A DNA stretch of 64,000 nt from Eledone cirrhosa (Eukaryota), in NCBI GenBank assembly GCA_964016885.1, contig OZ024746.1:67828001-67892000 (forward strand), written 5' to 3'. Shown one piece after another: positions 34,001-40,000 of the stretch. The notes beneath the pieces are model-generated. The model did not search any database. It had not been told where the DNA came from and worked only from the letters and a program-made list of their open reading frames with translations. Position numbers and translations under genes: made by a program. Numbering within the stretch: position 1 is the stretch's first letter; each line of letters opens with the position of its first letter.

Positions 34001-37000
34001 TCCACCTCCACCTCCAGATCCAGTGCTATCAGTATCTGATAGAGCACATTCTTCATCCTCTTCAGTTCCTTTCCCCGATTTCTCATTGCTGTGATTACTT
34101 TTCACAACTTGTAAAACCTCATCTTCACTGGCTTGGGGCAGAACTGTGCTAGTTCCCAATTTGCGCTGTCTTAAACGTCTTGCATGGCTGCTCAGAGGGC
34201 TAGGGACATATCGCCTGAACAACTGATGCTCTGAGCCCACAGGTGAAGTGGACAACTGATGAGCAGGATTCTCCACTGATAACATATCTGTCGACATCTC
34301 TAAGTTGTTGTCATCAGATGCAGAGAGCAACTTGCTATAGACAAAGTCATTTGAAGCAAAAGAATCATTCAAATCCTCCTCATCATCATCATCATCTTCT
34401 GTAGTGTCTTGCTTCTTTTCAGAACTAATAGTGTCATCACTAATATCCTTTTGCATATCTGATACTGTGCTATCCATCACCTCTGTTTTCCCATTACATT
34501 TATTTGCAAGAGTATTTGATTCAGACAAATCTGTGCAAACTAAAGTACCGTCAATGGCTGAAAAGAAAAAAAACAAACAAAAAATAAACAAATAACATTT
34601 TTTTAAATGTAAGTGATATATGAAACAAGTTCTATTAATGTATGCAACAAGAATGCAAAGATCACAGATTTTTGTTTAATTATTTAAAAAGATCGATGAG
34701 TCTTAAATGCATGTCTTGGTTAACATCCAATAAATGTTTCACTGATTCATCTAAATTCAACAGGCTGTTCACTGATTTATGTATATATATATAAATCAGT
34801 GATTAATATATACATATATATATAAATATAAATCAGTGATTAATATATATATATATATATATATATATATAAATATAAATCAGTGATTAATATATACATA
34901 TATATATAAATAAGTGATTAATATATATATATAAAATAAGCCACTATACTTAGCCTTTGTTGACCTAGAGAAGGACTTTGATAGGGTACCCCAATCTGTC
35001 ATCTGGTGGTCCCTAAGGAAGCTAGGTGTTGAGGAATGGCTTGTGAGGACAGTGCAAACTTTGTACAGAGGTACTCTCAGTAAAGTCAGGGTAGGAATGG
35101 AGTTTAGTGAGGAATTCCAGATACAAGTAGGAGTACATCAGGGTTCGGTCCTCAGCCCGCTCTTGTTCATTATAGTCCTCCAAGCCATAACAGAGGAGTT
35201 TAAGACTGGCTGTCCATGGGAACTTCTCTATGCTGACGATCTGGTTCTTATAGTAGAATCAGTAGAGGAGCTAGAGAATAAATTCTGGCTATGGAAACAA
35301 GAGGACTGAGAGTGAACCTAGCTAAGACAAAAGTGTTGATGAGTAGAAAAGAGGACAAAACCCTGATTCCGTCAGGGAAATGGCCATGTTCGATATGCAG
35401 AAAAGGAACTGGCATAAATTCTATAAAATGCACACAATGCAGATCCTGGGTACACAAGAGATGTAGCGGGATAGCAGTCAAATTAACAGGTAGGGAGAAA
35501 TATGTATGCAGTAGGTGTACAGGGAAATTAGACAGTAGAAGTCGCATTGATAGACACATTTTTCAAATGCAGGAGGGCGCTATAGAAGTGGTGGATAGCT
35601 TCCAGTACCTAGGAGATCAGATTAGCATGGGAGGAGGGTGTTCCGAGGCCATAGTATCTAGAATAAGGATGGGTTGGAAGAAGTTTAGGGAGCTGCTTCC
35701 TCTGTTGACGAAGAAGGGTTTCTCGCGGCATACGAAAGGCCGGTTGTATGATGCCTGTGTGAGGAGTGCGATGCTGCATGGTAGTGAGACATGGGCAGCA
35801 ACTGCAGAGGATATGCGACGGCTGTAGAGAAATGAGGCAAGCATGCTCCATTGGATGTGCAGTGTAAATGTGCGTGAACGACCCAGCATAAATGTGTTGA
35901 GAGAGAAACTGTGTCTGAGAGGCATAGAATGTGGTGTACGGGAGAGGAGACTGAGGTGGTATGGACATGTGATGCGCATGGAGGATGACCGATGGCTGAA
36001 GAAGTGCCAGGAAATGCCAGTTGAAGGAAGACGTGGTAGACCATGAAAAACATGGGCGGAGGTGGTGAGAACAGACCTCAGATCATTGAAGCTCACGGTG
36101 GAGATGACGAAAGACTGTGACGAGTGGAGAGATGTTGTGCTGAATAAGACCCGTCCCACCCTTGCAAGCAGGGAAAAGCGGACGTAAAATGATGATGATG
36201 TATAAATATAAATCAGTGATTAATATATCAGGTTCAATCATCACATCAATCGTGCCTCAAGCTGGTCACCAGAGAAACGATTGTAATATGTCCAATAAAT
36301 TCCATTTGTCGCAACACTGATTCTCTTTTTTTCTGTGATATATATATATATATATATGTCTTATGGTAGCTAAGATGCATCCATAGGCAGTATGCCAGTT
36401 GAGCACTCGATACTCCTACAGAGCAGAGTATTATAGTATGGAAAACGAAAAATCAGTGCTGCATCGGAACTCAATTTATTATGTATTACAAAAGTTTCCC
36501 CGGCAAACAGCTCGAGGTGCGATCTTTGTGTGGATCGAATCTGACTCTGGATTTGCAGGTTCCTCAGACACGTCTATTGATTTCGGAGCAAATCCTCTTT
36601 CTATATATATATACACACATATATATATATATATATATAAGAGGGTGTTAAAGTTTGCTTGAAGCATTGTGAAATGTGTAAAATATGTAGTTTAGAAAGC
36701 CACAACAATGCAGATGAGAAATCTCGAGGTAGGAAGTGAGTGAGAAATAGGAGAAAAGTGAAAATTGAGAGAAACGAAAATGCAAACAAAACAAAGGTAG
36801 AAGGGTTACCGTAGTGGAGATTTAATCCCAATATTTCGGGCTCACGCCCATCAACGGGGGAAAGTTCCAAAAGGGGGGGGGGGGAACAGGCTAAGCCGGA
36901 TAAAGTTGTATTGTCATTAAAACATAGGAATGCCGTTATGGGGAAAATTATTTTTCCCCATAACGGCATTCCTATGTTTTAACGACAATACAACTTTCTC

Positions 37001-40000
37001 CGGCTTAGCCTGTTCCCCCCCTTTTGGGACTTTCCCCCGTTGATGGGCATGAGCCCGAAATATTGGGATTAAATCTCCACTACGGTAACCCTTCTACCTT
37101 TGTTTTGTTTGCATTTCTCTCAATTTTCACTTTTCTCCTATTTCTCACTCACTTCCTACCTCGAGAGTTCCCATCTGCATTGTTGTGGCTTTCTAAACTA
37201 CATATTATATATATATATATATATATATATATATAGTAATAATAATAAATTTGAAGACTAAAATCCAAAGAGGGCTCGATAAGGATAAATATATATTCTT
37301 TGCTTAAATTTTAATCTGTTATTTTAATAAATTAATATATATATATATATATATATATATATATATATGTGTGTGTGTATATATATATATAGAAAGAGGA
37401 TTTGCTCCGAAATCAATAGACGTGTCTGAGGAACCTGCAAATCCAGAGTCAGATTCGATCCACACACAGATCGCACCTCGAGCTGTTTGCAGGGGAAACA
37501 ATTGTAACACACAATAAATTGAGTTCCGATGCATCACTGATTTTTCGTTTTCCATACTATAATACTCTGCTCTGTAGGAGCATTGAGTGCTCAACCGGCA
37601 TACCGCCTATGGACGCATCTTAGCTACCATAAGACATATATATATATATATATATACATATATATATATATATATATATGTCTATATATATATATATATA
37701 TATATATATATATATATATATGAGAATAAACATGCTGCGTGGTTGCTAATGGGTTACATATGAATAAAGTTAGTCCTTCATCAGTGATCTTCCAACCATC
37801 ATTGGTATTTCATCACTTTAAAGACCATATACCTCCGGTTGGTGCGAGCAACGGCTAAAAAAAGTCGTTGGGACACGTAAATAAAGGGGACACGAGTGTA
37901 AACAAACAAAGATGGTGAAGCAACAAAAAGTGAGGAAGAAGAAGTCAAGTCCCAAATTTCTATGAATATAAATTCGGTGAAATCGTGAACGAGAGAGAAT
38001 AAAGACCATCAAACCTGGAAGGAATTCCGTACAGGTCTAACGGGAGGAAGAAGGGATCTAGTCTGTGAATTCGGTGAATGTAAGTTCTGTGAAATCGTAG
38101 ACGAGAGAGAGAAAAAAAGCGACCTGCCAGACCAAGGGTGCGAAAGAAAAGAATTACGCACAGGTCAAACGTGAAGGAGGAGAGGTAGTAACAGAGAGTG
38201 AGTGAGTGAAGGGTGAGGAAGAGGCTAACAGAGAGAGTGACTGCTAGAGAGGGTAAAGATACAGAGAAAGAGGAAGCAGTAAGAATGAAATAGACGGGTC
38301 ACAGCGGGGAAAAAAATATGTGTAAATATGAGAATAAACGATCTGCGTGGTTGCTAATGGGTTACTTATGAATAAATATGTATATATATCACAGAAAAAA
38401 AGAGAATCAGTGTTGCGACAAATGGAATTTATTGGACATATTACAATCGTTTCTCTGGTGACCAGCTCGAGGCACGATCGATGTGATGATTGAACCCGAC
38501 TCTGAAAATCGCAAGGTCCTCAGATACATCTTGATTCTATGAAACAGATTTTCCTGTGATATCATAGTCTGCTCTATGAGAGCATCAAGTGCCTACCACA
38601 TACAGACGCTTTAAGCATTCAACACCAATTATATATATATATATATATATATACCTACTGTACATCCCACCATCTATCGAATACTACCCGTATTTGTGGT
38701 CTTCCTAATCTTTGTACTGCACACACACACACACACTCTCTCTCTCCTATGTTTCTGGCTGGTCAAACTATTTGTTACAAATTATCTTCATATCAAATTC
38801 AAGGAAAAGCCCTAAAACTGATTTTAAATAATAATCAGATACAATAATATGAAAAGAAGCTATTCCTTTAAGACAAGAGTGAAAAGTAGATTGTACAGTG
38901 ATGTAATGAAAAGATATTATCAGAACTATAATAGTTGTGAAAGTTATCATATTGTGAAAGTTATCTTAAACATGTTATATATATATTCCTGATATATGAA
39001 TAAAGAAAGCAAGTTATTTAAGCTACATTTTTTTTATTATTATTATGGCAGAAAGCCATTCATTTAAAAGAGCTTAGAGTGAAAAGATATGAGAACTATA
39101 GTAGTTGTCTTACTGAAACAAAAGAATTTACCACTTTTATATTCCTGACATAAACAAGATATTAATGAATGAATGCCTTTATTTCTTCTTACCATACTGC
39201 AGTGTTTTGGTGGTCTGCAGTATGGCGAGAAGAAATAAATTTAAGAATGATATGTATTAAATTACATTATATAACAGTCGATCAACAACATCCCAGACCT
39301 CATTCACTATGTGGAGCTCGTCAAATTGGACCGAGGAAACAATGTTTCCATTGATCTTTCCAATTGCTAATACTATCTAACAGTCACAAATCCAGGCAGT
39401 AGGAGCAATGTGAAATATAGTGTCTTACTCAATGACATAATGCATCGCCCGATCTGGAAATCAAACTCACAACCTCATGATTGTGAATCCAATTCTCTAA
39501 CCATTCACCCACATGCCATCACATAAATTAAATTATATTTTATTATACTAGAGTGTTACCTATTATACTAGAGTGTTACCGATGGGTGGGTAATTTTAGG
39601 AGTATAACTTTGCTGTTATGGATAGTATTAGGTAAAATATTCATAATTTTGATCATCCAGTTGACTTAAGAAACATTTAGAAAATTTGAAATTTGAAACA
39701 TCCAAATCCAAATTGGTAAGATCACAGACCTCATTCGCTTACCGAGTGGGAGGAGTTCATCAGATCAGACCAAGAATTCATTGTTTCCATTGGTCTTTCC
39801 TATTCCTAATACTATCTACCAGGTGAAACTCCTGACAGAAGAATCAATGTGAAATAAAGTGTCTTGCTCAAGGACATAATACATTTCCCAACTCTCTAAC
39901 CACAAAGCCACATGCCTTCACTATTGGCGATAGAAATAATGTAGTCAGAGTCACTTGCAAGGAATCAAACTTTGTATTTCTTGCATGCTGAGAGAGCGTG

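What the first reader, a model, noticed from the sequence alone, without database searches (positions are those of the whole stretch)
36229..38630. Russian-doll stack of fold-back ribozyme elements inserted into each other's (TA)n tracts
Seen: three concentric inverted-repeat pairs (36229-36340/38385-38497; 36356-36620/37370-37637; 36682-37206), a Helitron-related fragment and a direct-repeat-bounded insert, with nearly every junction in (TA)n. At least three intact-core hammerheads and two variant ones lie within 2.4 kb. Inference: these elements target TA microsatellites, creating self-amplifying hotspots, and the transcript could fold into one long nested hairpin.
Basis: partly seen in the sequence, partly recalled or inferred. 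Interest (0 to 1): 0.75.

Follow-up and report, generated by a model that had tools for sequence, protein, structure and literature searches.

The report
Penelope pile-up with snap-back duplication
The nested mirror repeats are real, but they are stubs of five Penelope-type jumping-gene families piled into one TA repeat; the two outer mirror pairs are one local inverted copy of neighbouring DNA, likely made when a broken TA tract folded back on itself, and similar copies flank about 1 in 100 TA tracts sampled.

Summary
The three inverted pairs (94-98% alike) and the TA junctions are confirmed. Every piece is a dispersed family with Penelope-like-element (PLE) anatomy. C, B and E have a GIY-YIG ORF upstream in other copies. 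E is a PLE stub, not a Helitron.

Only the inner hairpin C is a fold-back element (ordinary PLE inversion: one arm with tail, one without). The A and B pairs are one 411-bp local inverted copy (36229-36639): the arms are sister sequences, both B arms carry the tail (1 of 15 other B pairs do), the A arms face inward, and the microsatellite interruption is mirrored. C, E and D likely landed later.

In 1.29 Mb sampled, 12 of 1069 TA tracts are flanked by such inverted copies, against 0 of 629 other microsatellites, suggesting TA-primed snap-back repair.

Three hammerheads have intact cores and two are variants. D holds a sixth motif in the non-circular SGC order (stems I and III covary, stem II weak). 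None was assayed.

The scan noted two-armed PLE stubs and the SGC motif before on other DNA of this genome. It noted only a SINE-coupled snap-back, not this TA-centred census.

The parts
36201..36228 (.). Left target remnant: last copy of an AT-rich unit also repeated at 34778-34933; ends in TAATATAT at the junction with the inverted copy
36229..36639 (+). The local inverted copy (411 bp): part of A + (TA)10 + whole B + (TA)6(CA)3(TA)10, mirror of 37335-37655 plus 38379-38499 without D
36229..36339 (+). A': 111-nt 3' part of the A pLTR arm; lacks the CUGANGA half of the hammerhead
   Evidence: sister of the right A copy, 3 shared derived sites, tree support 0.89
36358..36601 (-). B left arm: pLTR (positions 1-170) plus 74-nt tail of a Hydra-type PLE; type I hammerhead at 36567-36487
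36602..36639 (.). (TA)6(CA)3(TA)10, mirror of 37335-37391
36640..36947 (-). C tail-bearing arm (tail about 36640-36681): 3' end of an autonomous RT + GIY-YIG PLE; variant hammerhead at 36861-36826
36952..37205 (+). C tail-less inverted arm; variant hammerhead at 37033-37068
37236..37334 (.). E: minimal two-armed stub (tail arm about 50 nt, tail-less arm about 40 nt) of a very abundant Hydra-type PLE; not a Helitron
37335..37391 (.). (TA)17(TG)4(TA)7: the inferred original tract in which the fold-back was primed
   Evidence: role inferred
37392..37635 (+). B right arm (inferred original): pLTR plus tail; type I hammerhead at 37426-37506 with long helix II
37721..38378 (-). D: one 608-nt unit plus a 61-nt partial unit of an ORF-less tandem element with two fixed 3' ends 34 nt apart (retrozyme-like, PLE footprint)
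37764..37837 (-). Hammerhead-like motif in SGC order (cleavage site, GAAA, CUGAUGA); predicted cleavage after AUA
38390..38554 (-). A tail-less pLTR arm, homologous to B (72-73%); type I hammerhead at 38523-38442
38555..38629 (+). A tail arm (about 75 nt), head-to-head with the pLTR arm, so A alone is a two-armed stub
   Evidence: variable join among 29 copies; resemblance to the B tail read from the alignments
38630..38652 (.). (TA)12, right edge of the stack

Best explanation
This is a pile of 3' stubs of five Penelope-like families in one (TA)n site, in which only the inner hairpin C is an ordinary inverted PLE insertion, while the A and B mirror pairs are a single 411-bp local inverted copy that likely arose when a cut in the TA tract beside B folded back, primed synthesis along its own strand through B, (TA)n and 111 nt of A, and was rejoined to the other TA end. 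Inferred order: A and B insert tail-to-tail and age in place; the tract 5' of B is cut (PLE GIY-YIG nuclease or cruciform processing); the self-complementary (TA)n 3' end snaps back and is extended about 410 nt; end-joining to TAATATAT at 36228 fixes the copy; C and E later insert in the central TA and D in the right-hand TA. Shown: family identity, TA association, sister relationship of the arms, enrichment of such copies at TA tracts. Inferred: the cutting agent, the polymerase, the order of events, ribozyme activity.
For: PLE identity: C copies continue into RVT_1 + GIY-YIG in a 3.27-kb tandem; B and E have Hydra-type GIY-YIG upstream. C has one tail-bearing and one tail-less arm, as 14 of 15 head-to-head B pairs elsewhere do. 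B arms share 9 derived sites; 0 of 378 other pairs and 0 of 56 arm-versus-other pairs reach that; sister support 0.93. A arms share 3 derived sites (0 of 58 arm-versus-other pairs, but 26 of 406 other pairs); sister support 0.89. A and B arm divergences do not differ (p=0.57). The CA/TG interruption of the tract is mirrored and A's 3' ends face inward. Census: 13 of 1069 TA tracts have a flank inverted repeat (12 after dropping low-complexity L195) against 0 of 629 other microsatellites (p=0.005) and 5 of 6000 random spacers. Local origin checked for two: L298b copy 93% to its neighbour, at most 79% to 39 other family copies; L235 copy 99%, sharing an allele absent from 11 other copies. Known analogues: yeast local fold-back inversions at breaks (PMC11724301), breaks at TA repeats repaired by MMEJ (PMC13645644), PLE protein cutting both strands of AT-rich DNA (PMC11167929).
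Against: The shared B alleles could come from a source element with few daughters or from arm-to-arm gene conversion, so a snap-back at B's own insertion is not excluded; L029 shows that two-tailed B insertions exist. A's shared sites are all CpG transitions. The age gap between A+B (15 of 353) and C (6 of 252) is not significant (p=0.26). B-left has 11 private changes and B-right 3 (p=0.06), unexplained. Two of the 12 census hits (L259, L309a) look like independent tail-to-tail insertions, and L235 lies at a LINE 5' truncation, so it may be insertion-coupled. The copy is longer than the 5-150 bp yeast events. No empty orthologous allele was seen.
Confidence: 0.68

Rival explanations
1. The same single duplication was made during B's own insertion: B cDNA primed in the TA next to A, ran to B position 1, gained TA, snapped back and was copied through its tail into the flank (A).
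For: Position 1 of B is a recurrent 5' end (L008, L016, L018, L020). cDNA snap-back is seen in R2-based insertions (PMC11371274 passages). It explains why right B has no tail-less partner arm. L235 has this geometry at a LINE 5' end. An earlier scan note reports it for a SINE (e1-10308502, not re-tested).
Against: Both arms share about 5 alleles seen in 0-4 of 28 other copies (and one CpG change seen in 5), which fits ageing in place before duplication. L070, L279 and L298a show copies of pre-existing element 3' ends, which cDNA snap-back cannot make.
Confidence: 0.22
2. One reading: three independent fold-back elements inserted one inside the other's TA tract.
For: The pairs are concentric, the families target TA, and C is a true fold-back insertion inside the B pair.
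Against: A arms point 3'-inward, opposite to PLE inversions; A right is already a complete two-armed stub; both B arms have tails and the microsatellite itself is mirrored; the outer pair is not older than the middle pair (2.8% against 4.9%).
Confidence: 0.04
3. 3' transduction: a composite C-B-A RNA from another locus was retrotransposed here with a fold-back at 36949.
For: All pairs share one centre; PLEs can carry host DNA (PMC3846280 passages).
Against: No closer copy of A or B was among the 40 best candidates scored per search (best 89% and 93-94%). C's tail is on the left arm while the longer block is on the right, and E and D are unpaired.
Confidence: 0.03
4. Assembly or read chimera.
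For: Inverted repeats and TA tracts are hard to assemble; no listed contig bridges the junctions.
Against: Arms differ by 2-5% with their own indels; left-arm-specific sequence 36379-36491 is in short-read contigs at 100%.
Confidence: 0.02

Closest known systems
Hydra-clade Penelope-like elements (Craig et al. 2021, PMC8557442; section 11, passages and supplement rows seen, including Hydra-1_Obim)
   Same: Parents of B and E have a C-terminal GIY-YIG with CxCX5C linker, no CCHH, CxxC before the conserved E, and (TA)n insertion; inverted 5'-truncated copies and a tail on one end.
   Different: B tail is 74 nt and E tail about 80 nt, against the published 30-40 bp; A/B helix II carries a long insert; RT motifs of the B and E parents were not recovered.
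Nematis/Neptune-type C-terminal EN+ PLEs (same paper; supplement alignment rows)
   Same: C parent: single ORF, GxKF, DKG, RVT_1, CCHH-type GIY-YIG, short cysteine linker like the Nematis rows; partial tandem and inverted copies.
   Different: Linker is C-x4-C-x6-C rather than CX2-5CxxC; hammerhead core is a U4C/A6U variant; no tree was built, so the clade is by motif only.
Local fold-back inversions at double-strand breaks (PMC11724301, abstract and section 15) and MMEJ repair at TA repeats (PMC13645644, passages)
   Same: End folds back, primes synthesis on its own strand, and the nascent strand is joined to the other end; TA repeats are break sites.
   Different: Here germline-fixed, 24-450 bp, primed by (TA)n itself and often bounded by (TA)n at both ends; the yeast events are mostly 5-34 bp, and the TA paper's passages speak of small duplications without stating inversion.
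Animal non-LTR retrozymes (10.64898/2026.07.22.740005, part 1 of 5 read)
   Same: D is ORF-less, tandem, hammerhead-bearing and shows a PLE footprint.
   Different: Its motif is in SGC order, not type I; the unit is about 610-620 nt.
Type-SGC hammerhead / HRIMA-1 (Eckert et al. 2023, PMC10085705; section 13 and passages)
   Same: Block order site-GAAA-CUGANGA, intact core, covarying stems I and III, short linker from stem I to stem II, candidate interaction helix.
   Different: Stem II reduces to about one pair; published examples come from metatranscriptomes and similar data, here from an animal genome repeat; cleavage untested.

Membership tests
Penelope-like elements (EN+) | RT plus GIY-YIG in one ORF upstream of the pLTR | tested here: met
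   C: RVT_1 E=1.6e-10 and GIY-YIG E=4.5e-5. B and E: GIY-YIG motifs upstream in 4 and 2 loci, RT not fetched. A and D: no ORF found.
Penelope-like elements (EN+) | Head-to-head inverted copy with the tail on one arm only | tested here: met
   C in the window; 14 of 15 B pairs elsewhere; A and E stubs. The window's B pair breaks the rule, which is the clue to duplication.
Penelope-like elements (EN+) | Partial tandems forming pLTRs | tested here: met
   C tandem at 3.27-kb spacing in L146; D tandems.
Penelope-like elements (EN+) | Type I hammerhead with palindromic helix III in the pLTR | tested here: met
   Intact core in 16 of 29 A and 13 of 28 B copies; extra base after A9 and palindromic loop 3 as in PMC4209133 passages.
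Penelope-like elements (EN+) | (TA)n insertion bias | tested here: met
   A 29/29, B 24/28, C 26/29, D 27/29, E tail end 14/15 in the unselected sample; background 8.9%.
Hydra clade (B, E parents) | CxCX5C linker and no CCHH in the endonuclease | tested here: met
   Translations against section 11 of PMC8557442.
Hydra clade (B, E parents) | RWK and DKT motifs in RT; phylogenetic placement | not tested
   RT regions of these parents were not fetched.
Hydra clade (C parent) | No CCHH, DKT, no GxKF | tested here: not met
   C has GPKF, DKG and a CCHH-type nuclease.
Helitron (E) | 5' TC / 3' CTRR ends with subterminal hairpin and a Rep-helicase parent | tested here: not met
   E ends in (TA)n on both sides, has a variable central join, is collinear with an 80-nt tail in 12 copies and lies downstream of GIY-YIG. 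Helitron features are recalled, not from a call.
Fold-back/MITE DNA transposon (A, B pairs) | Both termini belong to one element and recur as a pair across the genome | tested here: not met
   No A locus of 29 shows the inward-facing pair; B pairs elsewhere are asymmetric.
Type-SGC hammerhead (D) | Block order S-G-C with intact core | tested here: met
   31 distinct matches in held loci, 8 in 1.29 Mb, 0 in 3 shuffles; core was required by the descriptor.
Type-SGC hammerhead (D) | Covarying stems I and III | tested here: met
   16 chosen sequences: stem III 94% paired, stem I 91% with 4 pairs changed on both sides; slid controls 38-45%. Sequences were selected for pairing in these stems, which inflates the percentages.
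Type-SGC hammerhead (D) | Stem II and the stem I-II interaction helix | tested here: inconclusive
   Stem II: one pair in 12 of 16, second pair 2 of 16; interaction helix 68% paired.
All hammerheads here | Self-cleavage | not testable with these tools
   Hammerhead folds of the three type I motifs cost 5-9 kcal/mol over the MFE alone and are out-competed by arm pairing in the whole region.

The most novel reading that the evidence does not exclude
(TA)n tracts in this genome self-prime: after cutting, likely by the PLE nuclease, the telomerase-related PLE reverse transcriptase extends TA and copies neighbouring host DNA backwards, leaving on the order of 20,000 TA-bounded inverted duplications. 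PLEs would thus build palindromes and new target tracts without inserting their own RNA. One passenger family (D) would also carry a working non-circularly permuted (SGC) hammerhead in a similar number of copies, a topology not reported from animal genomes in the papers searched.
Probability: 0.25. Interest if true: 0.78.

Novelty: new variant of a known kind. Interest (0 to 1): 0.5.

Why it matters
The elements and their TA bias are known, so the stack itself is ordinary for this genome. Two points go further. First, a (TA)n-specific snap-back duplication affects roughly 1% of sampled tracts; it is a measurable germline footprint of repair at TA repeats, links PLE cutting to palindrome formation, and warns that nested inverted repeats need not be nested elements. 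Second, an abundant retrozyme-like family with an SGC-order hammerhead would bring a ribozyme topology known from environmental RNA into an animal genome, and a single transcription assay can test it. The site seems to lie in an intron of a minus-strand gene, so the predicted 600-bp duplex could be an editing or silencing substrate (inference).

Tried and rejected
Rfam scan of the window found no hammerhead; the MIR2118 hit at 36871-37029 is below gathering score and reflects the hairpin. Sequencing-run search: no RNA holder listed. Contigs of other organisms X5 and X6 gave nothing at 100% likeness, so no orthologous site was seen; no listed contig bridged a TA junction. The first TA-centred scan was swamped by low-complexity hits and replaced; the CA control had 1 of 118, with a stricter complexity filter and wider tract definition 0 of 188. 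A conventional hammerhead was sought in D and not found. No ORF was linked to A or D. Candidate host exons gave no Pfam hit above cut-off, so the host gene is unnamed. Microsatellite run length at family ends (medians 32-59 nt) was too scattered to test de novo TA synthesis. Paper searches for a published PLE- or TA-primed inverted flank duplication and for SGC hammerheads in animals returned only the analogues cited; the library lacks most subscription papers and bioRxiv supplements are closed. The census covers 129 stretches at round coordinates on large contigs, not a formal random sample.
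Full report
Observation. The window is G000:C6:67828001-67892000 in a 3.0-Gb genome. The three inverted pairs are present at the stated coordinates and differ by 3 of 109 (A), 12 of 244 (B) and 6 of 252 (C) substitutions. Seven TA tracts punctuate the 2.4 kb. Left-arm-specific sequence is present unchanged in short-read contigs, which may come from the assembly's own sample. No contig bridges the TA junctions, so the layout rests on the assembly and on arm divergence.

Identity of the parts. Each piece is a dispersed family (39-40 best candidates scored per search). 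C copies run upstream into one ORF with RVT_1 and GIY-YIG, in a 3.27-kb tandem with an inverted third copy. Its GPKF, DKG and CCHH motifs and short linker are Nematis-like (no tree built). B and E have Hydra-type GIY-YIG upstream. A is 72-73% like B and is itself an inverted tail joined to a pLTR arm. E is the same build in 99 nt and very abundant: 15 tail ends in 690 kb. D is an ORF-less tandem unit with two fixed 3' ends, positions 624 and 658. Ends abut microsatellite in 29/29, 24/28, 26/29 and 27/29 copies of A-D against 8.9% background. These are published PLE features: inverted truncated copies, a tail at one end and (TA)n bias (PMC8557442 passages), and two RT start sites with cutting of both strands in AT-rich DNA (PMC11167929, parts 1-2 of 4).

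Why the nesting is not three elements. C has a tail on its left arm and none on its right, the normal PLE footprint. B here has the tail on both arms, seen in 1 of 15 other head-to-head pairs. The TA tract next to B's 5' end is mirrored together with its CA/TG interruption. A's arms point 3'-inward, and right A is already complete. B's arms share 9 derived sites, a count reached by 0 of 378 other pairs, and are sisters in a tree (0.93). A's arms share 3 CpG changes and are sisters (0.89), though 26 of 406 other A pairs also share 3. A and B divergences are alike (p=0.57). D is 11 of 622 from its consensus and each C arm 4 of about 255, consistent with later arrival, but the gap to A+B is not significant (p=0.26). 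The simplest reading is one inverted copy, 36229-36639, of what lay to the right of a TA tract.

Is this a general process? In 129 ten-kb stretches at round coordinates (1.29 Mb), 13 of 1069 TA tracts have reverse-complementary flanks; I dropped one low-complexity hit (L195), leaving 12. Controls: 0 of 629 CA, GA, triplet and poly-A tracts (p=0.005), 5 of 6000 random spacers, and 1.2 expected from mismatched pairing. Two hits (L259, L309a) look like independent tail-to-tail insertions; of the other 10, about 7 have (TA)n at the far end of the copy as well (read by eye). L298b is 93% like its neighbour and at most 79% like 39 other family copies. L235 copies 97 nt of LINE interior at 99%; 11 other copies of that LINE have no TA there, but the site is also the LINE's 5' end. 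L070, L279 and L298a copy pre-existing element 3' ends. Ten per 1.29 Mb extrapolates to roughly 20,000 genome-wide (rough).

Mechanism. Shown: families, TA bias, common origin of the arms, TA-specific excess of flank copies. Inferred: a cut in (TA)n; self-annealing of the palindromic 3' end; extension along its own strand; joining to the other TA end. This matches fold-back inversions at yeast breaks (PMC11724301, abstract and section 15). TA repeats are break sites repaired by MMEJ with small templated duplications (PMC13645644 passages). The main rival is snap-back during B's own insertion (PMC11371274 passages); the shared private alleles argue against it, but a rare source copy or gene conversion could mimic them. 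Whether the PLE protein or host enzymes cut and extend is open.

Ribozymes. Three type I motifs have CUGAGGA and GAAA cores, a palindromic helix III and a long helix II, like PLE motifs that cleave weakly and as dimers (PMC4209133 passages). C carries helix I, CCGUUGA plus U, a GGGC/GCCC helix II and GAAA-UAUU in 25 of 29 copies; with U4C and A6U its activity is doubtful. In a transcript of the whole region 94-99% of left-arm bases pair with the right arm on either strand, which would sequester all five. Following an earlier scan note, I tested D: it holds cleavage site, GAAA and CUGAUGA in SGC order. The descriptor found 31 distinct matches, 8 in the 1.29-Mb sample and none in shuffles. On 16 of the 31, chosen for diversity, stems I and III covary (7 pairs changed on both sides overall, 0 of 500 shuffles), but stem II is about one pair and the sequences were selected for pairing. 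Published SGC ribozymes come from metatranscriptomes and similar data (PMC10085705, section 13 and passages). In tandem RNA the same blocks could form a conventional type II or III fold across units.

Context. An ORF-like exon lies on the minus strand at about 34560-33725 with further candidates on both sides, so the site is likely intronic; the gene was not identified. An RT-bearing LINE fragment (34935-36200) separates the stack from a short repeated snap-back at 34768-34935.

Verdict. Real, mostly a known kind. The nested-element reading is replaced by PLE stubs plus one TA-centred fold-back duplication. The census and the SGC motif are the parts worth following. My searches found no paper describing either in an animal germline genome; the library is incomplete. 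The scan had already noted two-armed PLE stubs, stacks and the SGC motif elsewhere in this genome.

Noticed in passing
window 34768-34935: Short TA-centred fold-back (11-nt arms) of the unique flank, repeated 4-5 times with TA between; the same unit recurs at 36201-36228 after the LINE. Possibly repeated small snap-backs at the same site.
   Followed up: partly
window 34935-36200 (+): 5'-truncated LINE fragment with RVT_1 (E=1.3e-13) and an (ATG)n tail; RTE-like by recalled motifs.
   Followed up: partly
window 4330-5440: Another inverted complex with three minimal type I hammerheads (4647-4617 -, 4769-4799 +, 5194-5224 +) in TA-rich flanks.
   Followed up: no
window 33725-34560, 61311-61679, 11162-11491, 9694-10077 (-): Exon-like open frames of an unidentified minus-strand gene; no Pfam hit above cut-off for the three scanned.
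   Followed up: partly
L235:587-830 (G000:C1:245000587-245000830): 97-nt inverted copy of LINE interior bounded by (TA)n at both ends; 11 other copies of the LINE have no TA there, so the TA is target-derived or newly made.
   Followed up: yes
L239:2324-3010: TA-centred inverted copy of about 450 nt crossing several microsatellites and ending in (TA)n, the closest analogue of the window's structure.
   Followed up: partly
L029:510-1743: B insertion with tails on both arms and no TA at the centre, the one exception among 15 pairs.
   Followed up: partly
L146 (G000:C5:17098800-17108700): Near full-length C element: 798-codon open frame, 3.27-kb tandem and an inverted third copy; family copies about 1% from consensus, so recently active.
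   Followed up: partly
L202:3905-9323: Perfect 310-bp tandem arrays in inverted orientation, 99-100% identical.
   Followed up: no
L009:2205-2278, L092:2323-2396, L272:1879-1950: Divergent relatives of the SGC-order motif with compensatory changes in stems I and III; L272 has a two-pair G-C stem II.
   Followed up: partly
window 58996-59069 (-) and 62229-62330: tRNA-like match (47.6 bits, probably a SINE head) and a 100-nt hairpin.
   Followed up: no
window 36358-36601 versus 37392-37635: Left B arm has 11 private changes and right B arm 3 (p=0.06); could reflect error-prone copying or one-way conversion.
   Followed up: no
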